Positions 2,923-28,094 of a stretch of DNA of 64,000 bases are shown piece by piece. Source of the stretch: Escherichia phage AV108; sequence record OR352938.1. The stretch is one strand, 5' to 3'. Within the stretch, counting starts at the first letter, position 1; the number at the start of each line of letters is the position of its first letter. The position numbers and the translations under genes were made by a program. The notes beneath the pieces were generated by a model. The model was given only the letters and a program-made list of their open reading frames with translations, searched no databases and had not been told where the DNA came from.

Positions 2923-5844
2923 ATGGCAGATTTAAGCAGAATCCAATTTAAACGCACTAGCACTAAAGGTCGTAAACCGGATGCTAGTACGATGAATCCG
3001 GGGGAATTGGCAATCAACCTTGCGGATCAATATCTTCTTACTAAAAATGATTCCGGTGATATTATCAATTTAAGTTGTCCTCCGGTGTATGACCGCGATG
3101 TTACAATGGCGGGTAAGGTTAAAGGTAATAATTATATCTTAAGTAAAACCGCTAACTATCTGGAAGATCAGACAGCGAGAGATCTTAACTACTTTGGCGC
3201 TTTCCGTACCAATGGTCTTGATGGTCTTCTCGAACTCACGCTAAACGTTCCTCACTCTTACGGCGTCCAACATGGTCGAGGATTTACTTTCCAATATGGG
3301 CACACTGGATCGCGTGTAGAAACTTATGGATACAATAAAGAAGGTCAAAAAGCATTTAGCTATAAAATGTATCACGAAGGTGATAAACCTACTCCCTCAG
3401 AATTGAACGTTTATAGCAAACAAGAAATTGACAGAATGTTTATTAAAAACGTTAAAATGTCTGTTCCTTCCGGTGACGCAACTCGTGGTTACTTTAAGAT
3501 CGCGACCGCAATGATTCCTCAGAATAATGGTCGAATGGCATTTTTACGGATTTACGGCGGAAACGGATATAATGTTAACTCCTACGATCAGGTGGAGTTC
3601 CTTGAAATTGTGATTCGTGGTGGTAATAATAACCCTAAAGGTGTTAGTATTGCTGCATATCGTCGTAATTCTTTGAACGTCCATGAAGTATTTGCAATTA
3701 ATACTTCCGGTGATAACTATGACATTTATGTTAACTATGGTCGTTACACCGATAACGTTATTGTAGAGTTTGGAAAAACTGTTGATGTTGCATTGACTGT
3801 TCACGATGTTCCTGAATTTTCGGCGACTAAACCCGCAACCGGAACTAAATTTGATGCTCGTGTTATTACGATGTTCAACACCGAAAACAAAGCCGGAACG
3901 TTGATGTTTGATAATAACGGTCAAGGAACATATGATATTATCAGCTTGAATAACTCGACTGATATCAATAAAAAATATCTTCGTAAGTTTCGTAGCAAAT
4001 CCACAGAAACAATATGGCATGAGGTTGTCGAGGGTAGCGTATATCGTTTAGCTACTGGCGTTACTGATCAGTCAGACCAACTAAAAATTGATTTTAATGG
4101 GGTTACTGTAAATCGTCTTTTCGTTAAGGGAAATAATGCTATCAGAATGGAGCGTAGAGACGGACAAAGTAATTACCTAGAATTTTATGATTATCGTTCC
4201 GGTGCTAACCGCCGTCAAGGTTATCTAGGGTATGGTGACGGTACTACTAACACCGTACAGTTAGTAAATGAATTAACGGAAGGTAATAACTCATTAAGAC
4301 TGGATGATACTGGTCAGGTTACGTTGTCTGTAGGCAAAACAAAAATTGTATATACCAACGGACAATATTATTCCGCTAACTCTGATGCATATCGTATGAT
4401 CTATGGCAATTACGGTGCATTCTGGCGCAATGACGGGACTAAAGTTTATCTTCTTTCCACCGAAGAAAATGACCATTTTGGTGGATGGAACGGCAACCGA
4501 CCATTCATTTACGATTTGACGACTGGTAAAGTTACTTTAGGTGGTGACGGTAACGAAGGTGCATTAGTTCTTGAAAGAGATAGCCGTGCTGCTAGATTTG
4601 CTGGCGACATTTACGTTGGCAAAGGGATGTTAACATTTGATGCCGGACGATTAAATTCTCGTGATTACTTCCGGTTTAACCATTGGGGCGATAGCAATAA
4701 CGCTCGTGATAACATCTTACAGCTTGACGATAGCAAAGGCGCACACTTCACCACTGAACGTACTTTAGCAACTGGTGCAATTAAAACTAAATTCTTCGGT
4801 GATTTGGAATCTGCTGGTCAAATTAAATGGGGTAAAGGGACCGCCACATCTACGTTTACTCTACGTGTATGGGGTAACGATAGTCGTAAACAAATATTTG
4901 AATGCGGCGATGAAAGCGGGTGGCATTGGTATACCCAACGAGCGGGGGGTCCTGGTACAAATGATATTATATTCAATGTTAACGGGAAATTTCAATCTCA
5001 GGGTTTTGAGACTTCCGGTAATATTAAGATAACTGGTCCAGACCTTGAGTTTCGTCGCACTGGTAATAAGCATATCTGGTTTAGAGATCCAAACGGCTTA
5101 GAGTTAGGCGTGATGTACTGCGATGATGCTGGTGCTATTCGCTTCCGTGGTCAGAAACAAGCCCAGTCGTGGAAATTTGCAGATAAAATGATCCAGTTGG
5201 AATCTGGTACTGTATCCGGTGGCGGTAATGGCCTGATTCGTGGTGAAGTTGCTGGCGGTAGTTGGGCTAGCTGGCGTGACCGTGCTGCTGGCCTTATGGT
5301 TGGGTGTCCTCAATCAACCAATTCCGCTCATAACATCTGGAAAGCTACTCATTGGGGTAAATATCACATCGCAGCAATGGGTGTACACGTTCCTAGCGGT
5401 ACTATCGGTAATGCTATAGCTCGCCTAAACGTTCATGACGCCAACTTTGACTTTAGCGCCTCCGGTGACATGTCGGCAGGGCGTAACGGTTCGTTTAACG
5501 ATGTGTACATTCGTTCTGATGCTCGCCTGAAAATCAATAAGGAAGAGTATAAAGAGAATGCCACCGATAAAGTTAATCGCTTGACGGTATACACCTATGA
5601 CAAGGTTAAATCTTTAACCGACCGTACTGTCATTGCTCATGAAGTTGGTATTATTGCTCAGGATCTTGAAAAAGAATTGCCGGAAGCCGTAACAACTTCT
5701 AAGATCGGAGATCCAGATAATCCAGAAGAGATCTTAACAATTTCTAACTCTGCTGTCAACGCTCTTTTAATTAAGGCGTTTCAGGAAATGAGCGAAGAAT
5801 TGAAAGCCGTTAAAGCTGAACTAGCGGAACTTAAAAAGAATTAA
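2923..5844 (+). CDS. 37: long tail fiber large distal subunit gp37 with C-terminal intramolecular chaperone domain
   Basis: 973 aa; N-terminus IQFKRTSTKGRKPDAS...GELAINL resembles T4 gp37; C-terminus SDARLKINKEE...GIIAQDLEKEL...coiled coil resembles S74-type self-cleaving chaperone. Confidence 0.85.
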   Translation: MADLSRIQFKRTSTKGRKPDASTMNPGELAINLADQYLLTKNDSGDIINLSCPPVYDRDVTMAGKVKGNNYILSKTANYLEDQTARDLNYFGAFRTNGLDGLLELTLNVPHSYGVQHGRGFTFQYGHTGSRVETYGYNKEGQKAFSYKMYHEGDKPTPSELNVYSKQEIDRMFIKNVKMSVPSGDATRGYFKIATAMIPQNNGRMAFLRIYGGNGYNVNSYDQVEFLEIVIRGGNNNPKGVSIAAYRRNSLNVHEVFAINTSGDNYDIYVNYGRYTDNVIVEFGKTVDVALTVHDVPEFSATKPATGTKFDARVITMFNTENKAGTLMFDNNGQGTYDIISLNNSTDINKKYLRKFRSKSTETIWHEVVEGSVYRLATGVTDQSDQLKIDFNGVTVNRLFVKGNNAIRMERRDGQSNYLEFYDYRSGANRRQGYLGYGDGTTNTVQLVNELTEGNNSLRLDDTGQVTLSVGKTKIVYTNGQYYSANSDAYRMIYGNYGAFWRNDGTKVYLLSTEENDHFGGWNGNRPFIYDLTTGKVTLGGDGNEGALVLERDSRAARFAGDIYVGKGMLTFDAGRLNSRDYFRFNHWGDSNNARDNILQLDDSKGAHFTTERTLATGAIKTKFFGDLESAGQIKWGKGTATSTFTLRVWGNDSRKQIFECGDESGWHWYTQRAGGPGTNDIIFNVNGKFQSQGFETSGNIKITGPDLEFRRTGNKHIWFRDPNGLELGVMYCDDAGAIRFRGQKQAQSWKFADKMIQLESGTVSGGGNGLIRGEVAGGSWASWRDRAAGLMVGCPQSTNSAHNIWKATHWGKYHIAAMGVHVPSGTIGNAIARLNVHDANFDFSASGDMSAGRNGSFNDVYIRSDARLKINKEEYKENATDKVNRLTVYTYDKVKSLTDRTVIAHEVGIIAQDLEKELPEAVTTSKIGDPDNPEEILTISNSAVNALLIKAFQEMSEELKAVKAELAELKKN

Positions 5845-22675: not shown

Positions 22676-22989
22676 TATCCTAAAATCCTCACCTTGCGAA
22701 CACAGATAGTATTGAGTTCTCGCCGTACCCGTTCTTTTTCATATTCAGGAATTTTATATTCGATACCATCCCGAACAATTTCAGAAGACCGGATTATGCC
22801 AAATTTTCGTTTAGGTACAACCTTGTATTTCGGTTCACCCGCCAATAGACTCTCACAATAATCTATCTGATCACACATTGACGCTAACGCAGCATCATGT
22901 GTTTCGCAAGTTAGGACGCGACCTTTCGCGTCCACTGAGTATTGAAAGAATCCGTCTTTATCACGATAACATACAGCAAATACATGCAT
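22675..22989 (-). CDS. hypothetical protein (dda.1 position)
   Basis: 104-aa ORF translationally coupled to dda. Confidence 0.4.
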   Translation of the reverse strand: MHVFAVCYRDKDGFFQYSVDAKGRVLTCETHDAALASMCDQIDYCESLLAGEPKYKVVPKRKFGIIRSSEIVRDGIEYKIPEYEKERVRRELNTICVRKVRILG

Positions 22990-23744
22990 TATAAACCTAC
23001 CTTCGCTTTCATCAATTCAATCCACGACGCATCAATCGGAAGCCCGTATTTCACGCGTTCTTTTTGTGCTGGCGTTAAGTTCTCATACTTAGAAAGAGAT
23101 TCAATCAAAACGCTGGTATATTTTAGCACGATTTCGGTATTGTTTGCAATAGCCTTAAGTTTTTCTTCTTTCTTGTTGATTTCGCTAAGGGCTTGCTTGA
23201 GATCTGCAATTTTCTGATAACGTTCTTCCATACGGAAGAGAGTATTTTTAATCGCTCGCTCGGCTGCCTCTGCTTTCTCCGGTTCGTTGTGTTTTTTATG
23301 GCGCTCGATTGCTAATTTCTTTTCTTCGATTGCCATTTCCTGATTTTTGATGCGATTCTCGTTAAGTTCGATCCACTCGATGTACTTCGCACGTAGGGCA
23401 ATTTCATCATCAGAAAGTTTACCTTTAGTTCCCAGTTCCTGGATCTCTTTAAGAGATTCGATAGTGTGATTGCCACGGAAAGAATTATATTTCAGTTTAA
23501 CCGGAATTACATTGCCATCAACATATCCCAGATTGCAATCAATGCGCTCTAAGGAGAGTCCGTCATCACCTTCACCAAACGCTTCACCTGAATATGCGCA
23601 ATGAGTCTGACGGTAAATGTTACGCACAGTGACTAAGCTCATAGAGAAGTCTTTGTTGCGACGTGAAGCGCCAGCCATGATAGAGTTCAGACGGAAAACA
23701 ACCAGCGCCAATTCTTCGTTAGATTTAAAAGCAAACAGTTTCAT
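22989..23744 (-). CDS. Srd-like protein
   Basis: 251 aa, coiled-coil-rich C-terminal half; size and position match T4 srd; by synteny only. Confidence 0.45.
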   Translation of the reverse strand: MKLFAFKSNEELALVVFRLNSIMAGASRRNKDFSMSLVTVRNIYRQTHCAYSGEAFGEGDDGLSLERIDCNLGYVDGNVIPVKLKYNSFRGNHTIESLKEIQELGTKGKLSDDEIALRAKYIEWIELNENRIKNQEMAIEEKKLAIERHKKHNEPEKAEAAERAIKNTLFRMEERYQKIADLKQALSEINKKEEKLKAIANNTEIVLKYTSVLIESLSKYENLTPAQKERVKYGLPIDASWIELMKAKVGL

Positions 23745-23773
23745 AATTGATTCTCCTTAGTTGGTATGTGTGT

Positions 23774-23802
23774 ATTATTGTCTATCTGGTTTGTGCTGTC
23801 AA
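23774..23802 (-). promoter_or_regulatory. sigma70-type early promoter
   Basis: TTGACA-N17-AATAAT upstream of the srd-like gene. Confidence 0.45.
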
Positions 23803-23805
23803 CAC

Positions 23806-24309
23806 TTAAATTAAAGAAAATTTGTAAATCTCTATCAGATCGCCGTTACACGCGTAAACTTCCTCGATCTCATCAAGGATCATGGTCGTCCCTGTCTTGT
23901 ATATGCACTCGCGCTCATCTGCCAACATAGCATACAAAGACAGTCGAGTAGTCGGATTGTCATACTCTTTAGACACCACTCGGTCAATAGCATGTTCGTA
24001 ATAATTCATGCAAGGCTTGGTAGGTTTTATTGCAATAATCTTTCCTGTTGCATAAACATCGGTTGCAAAGTCCTCTGCTGTTGATTGCAGTGGCGTAAAG
24101 CTCATAGGACGCTCTACAACGAAAGAATCACCTACAATTAAGGTATCCAGCTTACGACCTTCTCTTTTGCTCACACCGCGATACAAGGCTTCATGATGCA
24201 CTAACCGTTCAGTCTTTTCGATCAATCCATTAAGGATCGACATATCGATATTTTCTTTAGAGTTCATCACTTCATCAATGATGTTAAGTTCTTCTGGTGT
24301 AAATTGCAT
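23806..24309 (-). CDS. putative ADP-ribosyltransferase (ModA/ModB-like)
   Basis: Ordered R-S-E signature: LYRG, then QSTAEDF, then DERECIY; position matches T4 mod genes. Confidence 0.45.
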   Translation of the reverse strand: MQFTPEELNIIDEVMNSKENIDMSILNGLIEKTERLVHHEALYRGVSKREGRKLDTLIVGDSFVVERPMSFTPLQSTAEDFATDVYATGKIIAIKPTKPCMNYYEHAIDRVVSKEYDNPTTRLSLYAMLADERECIYKTGTTMILDEIEEVYACNGDLIEIYKFSLI

Positions 24310-24310
24310 A

Positions 24311-24342
24311 ATAAAAAAGCCTCCAATCTTTCGACAGGAGGC
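24311..24342 (-). terminator. intrinsic terminator
   Basis: gcctcc-N12-ggaggc hairpin with T-run on the leftward strand. Confidence 0.5.
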
Positions 24343-24372
24343 ATAATAAAACCATTATAGAGTAGTGTCAAC
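24343..24372 (-). promoter_or_regulatory. sigma70-type early promoter
   Basis: TTGACA-N18-TATTAT immediately after the terminator. Confidence 0.45.
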
Positions 24373-24378
24373 TAATTT

Positions 24379-24897
24379 TTAGTAGCCGCGTTCTTGACGG
24401 GCGAAGTTTTCAGCATTTTTCAGATAGTACAGCTTGAAGATATCCTTAGCGGTTAAACCTAAGCCCAGCATTTTAATCAGCACAAAATGCCAGATATCGA
24501 TCAATTCCATCACAATTTCGGTTTTATCGTCATCTGACAGATCAGCAAATTTACGCGCTCGTGCTTCGCCGTGGTTCTTCTTCCACACTTTAGTAATTGC
24601 GCTTGCATCTTTGCCATTTGACATGCCACCCAGGGCAACATAAAGTTCTCGTGTCTCGTCGTCGATTGCGTCATCCCACAACTTCATCCAGTCAAGGATC
24701 TCCCCGCAAGTTTCCAGCTTATCAGGATGCATTACCCACTCAAATTTATCAGCTAGTGCGACCTGTAATCCTTTTTGCATATCTAACATTACTTGCAGCG
24801 GATCTTTACCGCTAGTGATTGCCTCGGAATACGCAATACCAGCTTTAGACATAGTTTCATCATTAACAAGACCAGCACAAGAATTAAATTCACTCAT
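24379..24897 (-). CDS. putative dCTPase/dUTPase-like all-alpha NTP pyrophosphatase (gp56-like)
   Basis: Start taken at MSEFNSCAGL; helix-rich, DPLQVMLDMQ, ELIDIWHFVL motifs resemble MazG/gp56-type enzymes; by eye only. Confidence 0.45.
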   Translation of the reverse strand: MSEFNSCAGLVNDETMSKAGIAYSEAITSGKDPLQVMLDMQKGLQVALADKFEWVMHPDKLETCGEILDWMKLWDDAIDDETRELYVALGGMSNGKDASAITKVWKKNHGEARARKFADLSDDDKTEIVMELIDIWHFVLIKMLGLGLTAKDIFKLYYLKNAENFARQERGY

Positions 24898-24907
24898 AAT
24901 AAACCTC

Positions 24908-25471
24908 TCAAATAACATTAAACACTGCAAATTCACCGTGATACTTATACGCATAGTCATTATATACTATTGCGGCGTCTATTTCTAGGTCAAATTGTCC
25001 TATATAGACTTTATTTCCTTCATTGTCCCTTATCTGGGCGACCCATTTACCCGAACGACTATTATAATGCACTCCTTTAAAATTGCTAGTTTTAGTTTGG
25101 TTGTTTCTTCTCATATTTTGGGTATTCTGTTTTTGTGTCGCCTCTCTTAAGTTTGGAGGATCGTTGTTCTCTGGATTCCCGTCAATATGGTCAATGACAG
25201 GTGGGCAATACCCATGCTCTAAGAAGAATACTATTCTATGCACAAGCTCAAAATATTGTTTTCCTTCAAAAGAAAATGAGACTTTTAGGTGTCCGGCTGT
25301 GACTTTAGATACCTTTACTATATCACCAACCTTATAAAACTGGCCTTCTTTCGTCGTTCGGCTTGCTTTGCTGTTTGTTTTATGAATCAATATACCCCTT
25401 TCGTGTCTATATCTTCGACGTATTTCATCCTTTAATTCATCGCTCCATTCTTTGGCTTTCCTTACCCTCAC
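24908..25471 (-). CDS. free-standing HNH homing endonuclease with AP2 DNA-binding domain
   Basis: HNH motif HRIVFFLEHGYCPPVIDHIDGNPENNDPPNLREATQKQN; AP2-like FKGVHYNSRSGKWVAQI...YIGQFD...EIDAA. Confidence 0.75.
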   Translation of the reverse strand: MRVRKAKEWSDELKDEIRRRYRHERGILIHKTNSKASRTTKEGQFYKVGDIVKVSKVTAGHLKVSFSFEGKQYFELVHRIVFFLEHGYCPPVIDHIDGNPENNDPPNLREATQKQNTQNMRRNNQTKTSNFKGVHYNSRSGKWVAQIRDNEGNKVYIGQFDLEIDAAIVYNDYAYKYHGEFAVFNVI

Positions 25472-25488
25472 AATACAACCCTCATTAA

Positions 25489-26517
25489 TTAAAATTTACA
25501 ATATTTCATAAACCGCATTTTAGCCATCAGACCTTGTACGGTGTTCTCTTTGATATATTCCATGATCTGGTCGCGTGTAGCGCCCTCGTCCTGAATCATG
25601 GCGTTAACGTCTTTAGAATGCCACGGGCAACGATCCCACAATACAATCTTTTCCCCTGCATTGATAAACTTTTCCAGTCGGTGCATTGTATCGGCAGACC
25701 GTGGTTCCGCATCAAGTACAAACACTCGCTGGTCTGGGAAAGGGATTTCATCTAATCCCAAAGTACCGCCAGTAATTGCACACCCGTTATCAATAAACAA
25801 TGAATCGATCGGACCTTCTAAGAAATACACTGGTTTACTCGGATCGGCGCGTTCAAGACCATAGACCTTACTCGCTAACTCGTGAGTTTTAATCGTCATA
25901 TATTTGGTCTTTCCGTAATCCTTTCTCAATGCTCGCCCCTGAATGGATTCTATCTTGTTCTCGCGGTTAAAGATAGGAATCACTAAACGCGGTTCAGGTT
26001 GTGGATTCTTGAAAGTATCCGCCTTAATGTGATTTGCTACCTTTTGCCATTCTCTCGTGAAATACAGAAGATCCCATTTATCGTGAGGAATACAGCGATC
26101 ACTGACATACTTTATTATAGGATGATTAGCCGGAAGAGTATCTAATCTCTCGCAGAAAGGCAATGTTTGCACTTTCTTAATCTCCGGCTTTTCTACCTTT
26201 TTCAGTGGCTTGAACGTGGTGTTCTTGTGGTCGCCTTGTTCCTTCCGTCGTTCCATAAGCCATTCCCTGAATAGGTCCGGCTTATACTGTTTGAGAAATT
26301 CACCTAACGGCTGATTGTAGTTACAGTTGAAACAGCCGCAACGCAAACTATCCTTATAGGTATAGATACGGAATCGCGCCATTGTGCTATTCTTTTTGGA
26401 ATCTCCGCAGATCGGACAACTTGCTACTAACGTAAATGAGTTAGTATGTAACCGCTTGAAATTTCGTTCGCCGTATATGGCTTTTTCCGCTATTTCATAA
26501 TCTGCGTAGTAAATCAT
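25489..26517 (-). CDS. 61: DNA primase
   Basis: 342 aa as T4 gp61; N-terminal zinc ribbon CPICGD...CGCFNC; TOPRIM-like EGPIDSLF and VLDAEP. Confidence 0.9.
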   Translation of the reverse strand: MIYYADYEIAEKAIYGERNFKRLHTNSFTLVASCPICGDSKKNSTMARFRIYTYKDSLRCGCFNCNYNQPLGEFLKQYKPDLFREWLMERRKEQGDHKNTTFKPLKKVEKPEIKKVQTLPFCERLDTLPANHPIIKYVSDRCIPHDKWDLLYFTREWQKVANHIKADTFKNPQPEPRLVIPIFNRENKIESIQGRALRKDYGKTKYMTIKTHELASKVYGLERADPSKPVYFLEGPIDSLFIDNGCAITGGTLGLDEIPFPDQRVFVLDAEPRSADTMHRLEKFINAGEKIVLWDRCPWHSKDVNAMIQDEGATRDQIMEYIKENTVQGLMAKMRFMKYCKF

Positions 26518-26526
26518 AATAACCTC

Positions 26527-26730
26527 TTATAGCTCAAATTTCATGAAAGTTCCTACACTTTCATTTTCATTCTCTCCGTTTTCATCTAAGCCAAATTTGT
26601 AGACACTACCATCTGGCGATGTGTAAGAGAATACACGAAAACGGCCTACCGGATCAAGTTCCATGAACTCATATTCTTTTCCGGCTTCAAAAAGTGCATA
26701 TGTGCTTTTAAGACATTTCATCGTAATCAT
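26527..26730 (-). CDS. hypothetical protein
   Basis: 67-aa ORF. Confidence 0.4.
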   Translation of the reverse strand: MITMKCLKSTYALFEAGKEYEFMELDPVGRFRVFSYTSPDGSVYKFGLDENGENENESVGTFMKFEL

Positions 26731-26891
26731 TTAAGTGCCACCGACAACAGAATGAGAACTACACCAACATACATTGTGATCTCGGATAACTTTTCTGTTT
26801 TTGTTTTGTGTCCAGATAATCCGAAAACAACAACACCGATAATAGCGGACAGCAAGCCAACGATAAACATGATGATACTAAGCACCGTCTT
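26727..26891 (-). CDS. possible small two-TM membrane peptide (not in ORF track)
   Basis: GTG-initiated ORF of about 52 aa (LSIIMFIVGLLSAIIGVVVFGL...) overlapping neighbours by 4 nt. Confidence 0.25.
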   Translation of the reverse strand, partial: KTVLSIIMFIVGLLSAIIGVVVFGLSGHKTKTEKLSEITMYVGVVLILLSVALK

Positions 26892-27054
26892 TCTCCTTTT
26901 TGCGTTTTTCTTTACCCGCTACACTAGGTCCACGATTGGTAATAGATCCGTTCGTTTCACCTGCTGCGATTTTCTCAGGATTGCCGCCAGCATCGCCAGC
27001 GGTCATATCTTCTTTGAGTTTATTTTCTTCAACAAACTGTTTAAATCCAATCAT
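26887..27054 (-). CDS. possible small protein (not in ORF track)
   Basis: ATG overlapping the upstream stop (ATGA); about 55 aa MIGFKQFVEENKLK... Confidence 0.25.
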
Positions 27055-27428
27055 AGAATAATCTCTTTCAGTAAGTCAACAATCTGGTCTTTCGTCAGTT
27101 TATCCTGATTCTCTACAATCTTGATAACACAAGCATTAACATCTTTTCGAGTCACGCGGGAGATCGTTTTAATACGATGAAACGGTTCGTAGAAATATAC
27201 TGCTTCATTATAGAGAGCGGATACTTTACGACGCATTTGATCTTTATCTGACAAGAAAACAAGTGCTGTTTTATGACCTTCTACACCCGCCACGTTATAT
27301 AGTTCAGCAACACCCCAGCGACCTTCCGGTTCAATCATTCCGGCGTGTTTACCGTCGATAAAAATAAGAATATCTCCGTTGAATGCGGTTTTGAATGCTA
27401 CATCTTCCGGCGTAATCATATTTTTCAT
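27051..27428 (-). CDS. hypothetical protein
   Basis: 125-aa ORF. Confidence 0.45.
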   Translation of the reverse strand: MKNMITPEDVAFKTAFNGDILIFIDGKHAGMIEPEGRWGVAELYNVAGVEGHKTALVFLSDKDQMRRKVSALYNEAVYFYEPFHRIKTISRVTRKDVNACVIKIVENQDKLTKDQIVDLLKEIIL

Positions 27429-27458
27429 AATATAGTCTCCTTAGAGTTTCATTATAGA

Positions 27459-28094
27459 TCAAGCGAATGTAGAAAGCAAATGTTTTGTTTCTTTCAGTTG
27501 TCGTTCAAGATCTTTGCGTTTCTCTTTAAGTTGCATTTTAGCATTATTTCGCTGTTTTTCAACATCTTTATCAATGCTCTTATTCCAGTTATCAATATCA
27601 GAATAAGTTGGCATACCCAATTCTAGACCTAATGCGGTTGGATACAGGGTAACAGTCCATAAACCGCTAATCTTCTTAAATAGGTCTGGGTGTAGTGTAC
27701 TATCTACATCTTCCGGTGTCAACTCTTTTTCTTCTTTCAGTGGTGGGATCTCGTCATATGGTTCCAGTGCATTTACTTTAATATCAGATACCTCATCAAA
27801 GAATCCGCGTACATCCGCAGGAAATACACAAGCAATTTCCCAACCGTGATCACGCAGAGAAGTAATATTTTTCACTCCCCCACCATGTGTGATGATTGAT
27901 GTGACATTGCCATCAAGGTCCACCGAATTTACGAGAAATGGCTTATCGTCTGTCAGATCATTATAAAACTGTGCTTCGGCTGTAGTCATCTCCAGAAACA
28001 GATCTCGGATCGGACGACCATCAGGTGCGTTACCTTCCTTGAGAGTATAAAAGCGACTTACGATCCATTTTGGCGGTAAAGCATTAGCGATCAT
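27459..28094 (-). CDS. hypothetical protein
   Basis: 211-aa ORF between genes 41 and 61; charged coiled-coil C-terminus. Confidence 0.45.
   Translation of the reverse strand: MIANALPPKWIVSRFYTLKEGNAPDGRPIRDLFLEMTTAEAQFYNDLTDDKPFLVNSVDLDGNVTSIITHGGGVKNITSLRDHGWEIACVFPADVRGFFDEVSDIKVNALEPYDEIPPLKEEKELTPEDVDSTLHPDLFKKISGLWTVTLYPTALGLELGMPTYSDIDNWNKSIDKDVEKQRNNAKMQLKEKRKDLERQLKETKHLLSTFA

What the first reader, a model, noticed from the sequence alone, without database searches (positions are those of the whole stretch)
24908..25471. Free-standing HNH-AP2 homing endonuclease gene between the gp56-like gene and gene 61
Clear HNH catalytic motif (DHIDGNPENNDPPNLR...N) followed by an AP2-type DNA-binding domain, the architecture of T4 mob-type endonucleases. 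Such genes are mobile and mark potential sites of intron-less homing and local gene conversion.
Basis: partly seen in the sequence, partly recalled or inferred. Interest (0 to 1): 0.4.

Follow-up and report, generated by a model that had tools for sequence, protein, structure and literature searches.

The report
Free-standing HNH-AP2 homing endonuclease gene
A small selfish nuclease gene of a well-known phage type sits between the primase gene and the dCTPase gene of an RB49-like coliphage; most relatives lack it and comparisons suggest it spread recently, which makes it a tidy but ordinary example.

Summary
Window 24908-25471 (minus strand) is an intact 187-aa ORF with a GTG start.

It has an I-HmuI-type HNH motif with all four key residues (D94, H95, N103, N116). 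It also has a C-terminal AP2/ERF domain. That domain scores below Pfam's cutoff but is confirmed by PDB sequence hits and a confident model (TM 0.81 to AtERF1).

The window is a Krischvirus (RB49-like). The gene is a precise +577-bp insertion in the 14-nt spacer between gene 61 and gene 56. It takes over gene 56's ribosome binding site and supplies a new one.

Only 7 of 55 GenBank Krischvirus records carry it. All 7, and none of the 48 others, also carry four linked synonymous changes in gene 56 codons 2-13. KFS-EC shows a recombination breakpoint 39-90 nt into gene 56. Carriers are not a clade in the neighbouring 24 kb, and the gene is about 6-fold less diverged than the adjacent gene 61.

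One claim fails: this is not the T4 Mob architecture. MobA-E have an N-terminal PF01844 HNH (MobB also NUMOD modules) and no AP2.

Verdict: an uncharacterised member of the known HNH-AP2 class. Cleavage activity and target site are inferred, not shown. Interest is low to moderate.

The parts
24908..25471 (-). HNH-AP2 endonuclease ORF, 187 aa, GTG start, TGA stop
   Evidence: (PHROG_99, E 4e-44). The same CDS is annotated in G2494, TB34, ELT3 and phiS.
25124..25192 (-). HNH catalytic core, residues D94-N116 (DHIDGNPENNDPPNLREATQKQN)
   Evidence: Ungapped phmmer alignment to I-HmuI 1u3e puts D94/H95/N103/N116 on I-HmuI D74/H75/N83/N96 (numbering). These residues are invariant or at least 90% conserved in 12 homologues.
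24917..25084 (-). AP2/ERF-type DNA-binding domain, residues 130-185
   Evidence: Pfam AP2 E 6.8e-7 but below the gathering score. PDB sequence hits to WRI1, ERF096 and AtERF1. Model strands 134-137, 142-148, 154-160 and helix 163-181. Foldseek 1gcc TM 0.81, rmsd 1.6 A.
25472..25488 (-). 17-nt leader TTAATGAGGGTTGTATT; its GAGG (25480-25483) is the ribosome binding site that serves gene 56 in empty-site genomes, now used by the endonuclease gene
   Evidence: Junction comparison of 12 genomes.
24892..25479 (-). Block that differs between occupied and empty alleles: 588 nt here against 11 nt (TGAAT ATG TCA) in empty sites, a net gain of 577 bp
   Evidence: The 577-bp size difference is also seen.
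24898..24910 (-). TGA stop of the endonuclease gene overlapping a new Shine-Dalgarno (TGAGAGG) plus spacer TTTATT for gene 56
24859..24894 (-). Gene 56 codons 2-13 with carrier-linked synonymous changes: Ser2 TCA>AGT, Leu10 CTG>CTT, Asn12 AAC>AAT, Asp13 GAC>GAT. Candidate co-conversion tract or immunity signature.
   Evidence: Perfect association: 7 of 7 carrier records and 0 of 48 others. Clustering P = 3e-5 to 8e-4.
24379..24897 (-). Gene 56 (dCTPase/dUTPase), downstream neighbour; the true ATG is at 24897
25489..26517 (-). Gene 61 (DNA primase), upstream neighbour; no carrier-specific changes in 1,040 nt

Best explanation
This is a free-standing homing endonuclease gene of the HNH-AP2 class in a Krischvirus (RB49-like T4 relative). 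The protein combines an I-HmuI-like N-terminal beta region and HNH (beta-beta-alpha-metal) nuclease with a C-terminal AP2 DNA-binding domain. Shown: it is a precise 577-bp insertion into the 14-nt spacer between gene 61 and gene 56. It is translated from gene 56's former ribosome binding site and carries a replacement site for gene 56, so the operon stays intact. It is present in a minority of otherwise near-identical genomes and always comes with a short block of synonymous changes at the start of gene 56. Inferred: during mixed infection the enzyme nicks or cuts the conserved empty-site sequence around the gene 61 stop / gene 56 start of a phage that lacks it. Recombinational repair from the carrier genome then copies in the gene plus a short flank of about 40 to 500 nt of gene 56. 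The insertion, together with the flank changes, makes carriers resistant to their own enzyme. This is intronless homing or local marker exclusion, as shown for T4 SegF at gene 56.
For: Domains and catalytic residues. Free-standing: no Rfam hit, and both neighbouring genes are intact. Exact empty and occupied junctions in 12 genomes. The identical 14-nt empty spacer is found with all three divergent gene 56 allele classes, so the empty state is ancestral. Presence/absence: 7 carrier records and 48 without among 55. Carrier-specific fixed differences: 7 columns, all within 130 nt of the junction out of 2,920 nt compared, all on the gene 56 side; all synonymous, including a three-base Ser codon switch; clustering P = 3e-5 to 8e-4. 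KFS-EC carries the gene but switches to the empty-site haplotype between nt 39 and 90 of gene 56. Among carriers, divergence is 0.47% in the endonuclease gene, 0.89% in gene 56 and 2.97% in gene 61. In the next 24 kb, carriers and non-carriers interleave by identity. All copies are intact, with 3 non-synonymous of 9 variable sites. Relatives at 48-49% identity occupy other replication-gene junctions: rpbA|45 and downstream of gene 39. Precedent: SegF excludes T2L gene 56 (PMC2330249).
Against: No cleavage activity, target site or expression has been shown for this or any close relative. The literature searches found no biochemical characterisation of a phage HNH-AP2 enzyme. The carrier block (endonuclease gene plus gene 56) could have spread by ordinary homologous recombination without nuclease drive. 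There are only six distinct carrier genomes plus the window, and the occupied junction was not found in IMG/VR. No donor lineage was found. The flank changes could be hitch-hiking donor polymorphisms rather than an immunity signature. GC is only slightly lower than the flanks (37.6% against 43%).
Confidence: 0.7

Rival explanations
1. Passive insertion: an HNH-AP2 gene inserted once in a Krischvirus lineage. It now persists and moves between backgrounds only by general homologous recombination. The enzyme is inactive at this site or has no remaining susceptible targets.
For: All carriers share the same gene 56 allele class and nearly the same ~1.1-kb block. T4-like phages recombine heavily, as the mosaic patterns show. 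No cleavage data exist.
Against: The catalytic residues are intact and the ORF is open in all 7 records, with mostly synonymous variation. The gene is about 6-fold less diverged than the adjacent gene 61 although it sits on different backbones. The conserved empty site is abundant in the population, with 48 records.
Confidence: 0.2
2. Domesticated function: the protein mainly benefits the phage. It could be a nuclease against competing phages or host DNA, or an AP2-type DNA-binding regulator of the 61/56 region. Its own propagation would be secondary.
For: The insertion preserves operon translation signals. A sigma-70-like match (TAGAAA-N17-TATAAT, 24987-24959) lies in its 3' end upstream of gene 56. 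From general knowledge, exclusion of competitor markers is a known by-product of homing endonuclease genes.
Against: Most Krischvirus genomes do without it. The promoter count is not above shuffled expectation (14 against 9.0 +/- 2.7). A pure regulator would have no need for an intact HNH motif.
Confidence: 0.09
3. Chance ORF or annotation artefact.
For: KFS-EC's depositors left the ORF unannotated.
Against: Pfam HNH_3 51 bits, PHROG_99 E 4e-44, PDB hits, a confident fold, and conservation in 7 records.
Confidence: 0.01

Closest known systems
HNH-AP2 free-standing homing endonuclease genes of T4-related phages (e.g. RB49ORF040c, RB43, RB16, JSE; Nolan 2006 PMC1524935; Petrov 2010 PMC2993671; Magnani 2004 cited therein)
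   Same: Same two-domain architecture, similar size, free-standing position among DNA-metabolism genes, and the same phage genus.
   Different: At most 49% identical to any other member. It occupies its own site (61|56), whereas relatives sit at other junctions. The searches found no published description of this site.
I-HmuI (Bacillus phage SPO1 intron-encoded HNH endonuclease, PDB 1U3E)
   Same: Direct sequence and fold match across the N-terminal beta region and HNH motif. D/H/N/N residues align without gaps.
   Different: I-HmuI is intron-encoded and uses a C-terminal helical/NUMOD-type DNA-binding module, not AP2. From general knowledge, I-HmuI nicks one strand. Whether this enzyme nicks or cuts both strands is unknown.
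T4 SegF (GIY-YIG, next to gene 56)
   Same: A free-standing endonuclease gene adjacent to gene 56. SegF drives exclusion of T2L gene 56 by gene conversion (PMC2330249; T4 map). It is the best functional analogue.
   Different: Unrelated nuclease family with no sequence similarity. SegF lies downstream of gene 56, while this gene lies upstream.
T4 MobA-E (mob-like HNH)
   Same: Free-standing HNH genes between conserved T4 genes.
   Different: N-terminal PF01844 HNH, with NUMOD modules in MobB. No HNH_3, no AP2, no BLAST similarity.
Plant AP2/ERF DNA-binding domains (AtERF1 1GCC, ERF096, WRI1, TEM1)
   Same: The C-terminal 60 residues share about 33% identity and the same fold.
   Different: Here the domain is fused to a nuclease in a phage. 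The DNA specificity is unknown.

Membership tests
HNH_3 / I-HmuI-like HNH nucleases (PF13392) | Profile match above the curated cutoff | tested here: met
   51.2 bits against a cutoff of 24.8.
HNH_3 / I-HmuI-like HNH nucleases (PF13392) | Catalytic and metal-binding residues D-H...N...N of the beta-beta-alpha-metal motif | tested here: met
   D94, H95, N103 and N116 align with I-HmuI D74, H75, N83 and N96. The residue roles come from general knowledge of I-HmuI.
AP2/ERF DNA-binding domain (PF00847) | Pfam gathering score | tested here: not met
   29.9 bits against a cutoff of 33.3, although E = 6.8e-7.
AP2/ERF DNA-binding domain (PF00847) | Three-stranded antiparallel sheet packed on a C-terminal helix, with sequence similarity to solved AP2 domains | tested here: met
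   phmmer hits at 5e-8 to 4e-4 to four AP2 structures. Model topology. 1gcc TM 0.81, rmsd 1.6 A, 33% identity.
Free-standing homing endonuclease gene | Not inside an intron or intein; lies between intact genes | tested here: met
   No Rfam hit. It lies in a 14-nt intergenic spacer with both neighbours intact.
Free-standing homing endonuclease gene | Presence/absence polymorphism at a fixed site among close relatives, with linked flank conversion | tested here: met
   7 carriers and 48 without. The flank haplotype is perfectly linked, and KFS-EC shows a breakpoint.
Free-standing homing endonuclease gene | Site-specific cleavage of the allele lacking the gene, and nuclease-dependent preferential inheritance | not testable with these tools
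   Needs an in vitro cleavage assay and phage crosses.
T4 Mob family (mob-like HNH) | N-terminal PF01844-type HNH (MobB with C-terminal NUMOD modules); sequence similarity to MobA-E | tested here: not met
   MobA-E match PF01844, and MobB also matches NUMOD1/NUMOD-like; none matches HNH_3 or AP2. There is no BLAST hit between this protein and MobB-E.

The most novel reading that the evidence does not exclude
The enzyme is active and currently spreading, and its recognition site spans the conserved gene 61 stop / gene 56 start junction. The four synonymous changes, including the three-base Ser codon switch, would then be an immunity signature rather than hitch-hikers. A second, unrelated HNH gene occupies the other end of gene 61 in some relatives and is linked to a 22-nt variant patch in the primase zinc-ribbon coding region. 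This window carries that patch without the second gene. Together these would make the Krischvirus primase gene a site where two selfish nucleases drive local diversification of essential replication genes, and natural variation would already point to both target sites.
Probability: 0.35. Interest if true: 0.4.

Novelty: new member of a known kind. Interest (0 to 1): 0.25.

Why it matters
It adds little in principle, because HNH-AP2 genes in RB49-type phages have been known since 2004-2006. Its practical value is as a clean natural test case. The empty and occupied alleles are defined to the base, carriers and non-carriers are cultured coliphages about 98% identical elsewhere, and the flank signature suggests where the target lies. 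That would make this an easy system for the first biochemical and genetic characterisation of a phage HNH-AP2 homing enzyme, including its specificity, whether it nicks or cuts, and its co-conversion tract length. It also flags the 56-61 region as a recombination hotspot to keep in mind when comparing or engineering therapeutic Krischvirus phages.

Tried and rejected
- **T4 Mob membership.** Rejected from Pfam architectures and BLAST.
- **Intron context.** Rfam with permissive E-values over 23500-27500 found nothing.
- **RNA hairpin hiding the start or RBS, as in T4 mobE.** Folds around both start sites are no better than shuffles (z = -0.7, -1.3, 0.06).
- **T4-type late promoter TATAAATA.** None within 23500-27500. 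Sigma-70-like matches are not enriched.
- **Paralogues within the 64-kb window.** None.
- **Same gene as the 187-aa HNH at the other end of gene 61 in ECD7/TB34.** No. Only the HNH motif is similar, and that protein is NUMOD4 + HNH_3 + HTH.
- **Donor or remnants elsewhere.** No DNA match in 5,426 E. coli genomes. No partial copies in other phages beyond a 74-nt HNH-motif stretch in paralogues. Only 12 relatives turned up in the indexed protein search, the nearest at 49% identity.
- **More carriers in IMG/VR.** The occupied junction had 0 hits and the empty junction had 2.
- **Primary papers.** Belle 2002 and Magnani 2004 are not in the held library. Their content is cited only through papers that were read.

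Full report
**Observation.** The stated coordinates match an open reading frame exactly: window 24908-25471, stop codon included, 187 aa, on the minus strand. It starts with GTG, with GAGG 8 nt upstream. There is no in-frame ATG before residue 120. The N-terminus aligns with homologues, and G2494, TB34, ELT3 and phiS annotate the same CDS.

**Domains.**
- Pfam HNH_3 scores 51.2 bits against a cutoff of 24.8, and PHROG_99 ('HNH endonuclease') gives E 4e-44.
- phmmer against PDB sequences hits I-HmuI (1u3e, E 1.2e-5). The ungapped alignment through the motif puts D94, H95, N103 and N116 on I-HmuI D74, H75, N83 and N96. From my knowledge of the I-HmuI structure paper, those are the metal ligands, the general base and the structural Asn.
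- These positions are invariant or at least 90% conserved in an alignment of 12 homologues.
- The AP2 call needed more care, because Pfam AP2 gives E 6.8e-7 but 29.9 bits against a 33.3 cutoff. The same C-terminal 60 residues hit four solved plant AP2/ERF domains by sequence (5e-8 to 4e-4).
- An AlphaFold model (mean pLDDT 88.4) shows three strands and a long helix at 134-181. Foldseek aligns this part to AtERF1 1gcc with TM 0.81, rmsd 1.6 A and 33% identity, and I-HmuI is the top overall hit.

Both domains are real.

**Context.** The window is a Krischvirus, an RB49-like member of the Straboviridae. The local gene order on the minus strand is: 41 ... ORF017, 61 (primase, 25489-26517), the HNH-AP2 gene, 56 (dCTPase, 24379-24897), modB-like, srd, dda.1, dda. 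The longer ORF 24379-24960 in the mechanical list is an artefact. Homologues show that gene 56 starts at the ATG at 24897. Rfam finds nothing in 23500-27500, so there is no intron.

**Anatomy of the insertion.** I compared twelve genomes at the junction.
- Empty sites read, on the coding strand, ...TTTTAA TTAATGAGG TGAAT ATG TCA GAA...
- That 14-nt spacer is identical in genomes whose gene 56 alleles are otherwise only 74% identical or too diverged for megablast. The empty state is therefore ancestral.
- Occupied sites read ...TTTTAA TTAATGAGG GTTGTATT GTG...(ORF)...TGA GAGGTTTATT ATG AGT GAA..., a net gain of 577 bp.
- The incoming gene uses the Shine-Dalgarno that formerly served gene 56, and it brings a new one (TGAGAGG, overlapping its own stop codon) for gene 56.
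- The unrelated HNH gene at the other end of gene 61 in ECD7 and TB34 uses the same layout.

**Distribution and signs of mobility.**
- In GenBank phages, 7 records carry the gene: TB34, SAP, G2494, KFS-EC (two records), ELT3 and phiS. The other 48 Krischvirus records that match the junction lack it.
- Over 2,920 nt of aligned flanks, only 7 columns have a base shared by all carriers and absent from close non-carriers. All 7 lie within 130 nt of the junction, inside gene 56. None lies in 1,040 nt of gene 61.
- Four of the changed codons fall in codons 2-13, and all are synonymous: Ser TCA>AGT, Leu CTG>CTT, Asn AAC>AAT and Asp GAC>GAT. The Ser change is a three-base switch between codon families.
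- This clustering is unlikely by chance (P = 3e-5 to 8e-4 by nucleotide, 0.005-0.04 by codon).
- An 80-nt probe of this haplotype matches at 100% in exactly the 7 carrier records. In every other record the alignment stops just before codon 2.
- KFS-EC carries the gene and the first 39 nt of the haplotype, but from nt 90 of gene 56 it has the empty-site haplotype. That is a recombination breakpoint.
- Among carriers, mean pairwise divergence is 0.47% in the endonuclease gene, 0.89% in gene 56 and 2.97% in gene 61. All copies are intact, with 3 non-synonymous of 9 variable sites.
- In the next 24 kb of replication genes, carriers are not a group. Non-carriers kaaroe, Delraymugoa and OZ035808 are as close to the window (98.0%) as SAP and TB34. 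G2494 is at 97.5% and ELT3 at 96.5%.

Together these results describe a young block of about 0.6-1.1 kb sitting on several backbones.

**Mechanism.** Shown: the architecture, the intact active site, the precise insertion that preserves the operon, the polymorphism, the linked flank tract and the incongruence with the backbone. Inferred: the enzyme recognises the conserved empty sequence around the gene 61 stop and gene 56 start, then nicks or cuts it in a co-infecting phage. Repair from the carrier genome copies the gene and a short stretch of gene 56. The insertion and possibly the synonymous changes protect carriers from their own enzyme. The closest experimentally supported analogue is T4 SegF, which lies next to gene 56 and causes exclusion of T2L gene 56 (PMC2330249). 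By homology to I-HmuI, the enzyme may nick one strand rather than make a double-strand break; this rests on my own knowledge and was not tested. The main rival is passive spread of an inactive or target-less gene by ordinary recombination. It cannot be excluded without cleavage assays and crosses.

**Comparison with known families.** HNH-AP2 genes were recognised in RB49 and RB43 by Nolan et al. 2006 (PMC1524935). Petrov et al. 2010 count them as a class separate from 'mob-like HNH' (PMC2993671, Table 5): T4 has five mob-like genes and no HNH-AP2, and RB49 has one HNH-AP2. MobA-E match PF01844 near the N-terminus. MobB adds NUMOD1 and I-HmuI NUMOD-like modules (NUMOD3 weak), and MobC has only a faint NUMOD-like hit. 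None matches HNH_3 or AP2, and none shows BLAST similarity to this protein. So it works like a T4 mob or seg gene but is not a Mob family member. Its nearest relatives are 41-49% identical HNH-AP2 genes at other junctions: downstream of gene 39, between rpbA and 45, and next to gene 46 in RB16-like Klebsiella phages. No donor was found in E. coli genomes or in other phages.

**Negative results.** No RNA structure hides the start site. There is no late-promoter motif and no enrichment of sigma-70-like sites. There is no paralogue in the window. IMG/VR contains no occupied junction. The held literature has no description of this site or of any characterised phage HNH-AP2 enzyme.

**Verdict.** The finding is real and its core interpretation is right. 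One comparison, to T4 Mob, is wrong. It is an uncharacterised, site-specific member of a known class and is already labelled 'HNH/homing endonuclease' in several GenBank records. The comparative evidence for recent mobility is good, but activity is unproven. Interest is low to moderate at 0.25.

Noticed in passing
window 26380-26458 (gene 61 nt 60-138, zinc-ribbon CPICGDSKKN region): A patch of 22 nucleotide differences (4 amino-acid changes) is shared at 99% or more only with ECD7, TB34, SAP, KMB43 and Cognac, which all carry a second, unrelated HNH gene upstream of gene 61, plus JK32. The window and JK32 have the patch without that gene. It may be a cleavage-resistant target variant, or a conversion tract left without the endonuclease gene.
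   Followed up: partly
window 26518-26526 (spacer between ORF017 and gene 61): This is an empty site for the ECD7-type 187-aa HNH gene (NUMOD4 + HNH_3 + HTH), which is also a 577-bp insertion and uses the same ribosome-binding-site capture layout. In TB34 and SAP the primase gene is flanked by endonuclease genes on both sides.
   Followed up: partly
window about 24418-24860 (body of gene 56): Gene 56 exists in at least three strongly divergent allele classes in Krischvirus: the window/MIZ6 type, the RB49/ECD7 type at 74% identity, and the JSE type with no megablast hit. The boundaries are sharp, while the first ~36 nt, the spacer and gene 61 stay conserved, so it behaves as a cassette-like mosaic.
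   Followed up: partly
L004 (JSE) 1929-2849, equivalent to the window's modB-56 spacer at 24310-24378: JSE and G37-3 carry a third endonuclease gene (306 aa, weak PF01844 HNH plus NUMOD3, mob-like) on the opposite strand between modB and gene 56. It overlaps the 3' end of their divergent gene 56. The window lacks it.
   Followed up: partly
window 22989-23744 (srd-like, minus strand): The Srd anti-sigma-factor homologue (PHROG_1400, E 7e-74) also matches PHROG families labelled HNH endonuclease and endonuclease VII, at 2e-12 to 6e-5, over its N-terminal 100-170 residues.
   Followed up: no
window 24959-24987 (minus strand, inside the 3' end of the endonuclease gene): A sigma-70-like match TAGAAA-N17-TATAAT lies about 60 nt upstream of the gene 56 ATG. 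The overall count of such matches is not above shuffled expectation.
   Followed up: no
L008 (KFS-EC MH560358 / NC_055757) 3909-4472: The intact endonuclease ORF is left unannotated in both KFS-EC records.
   Followed up: yes
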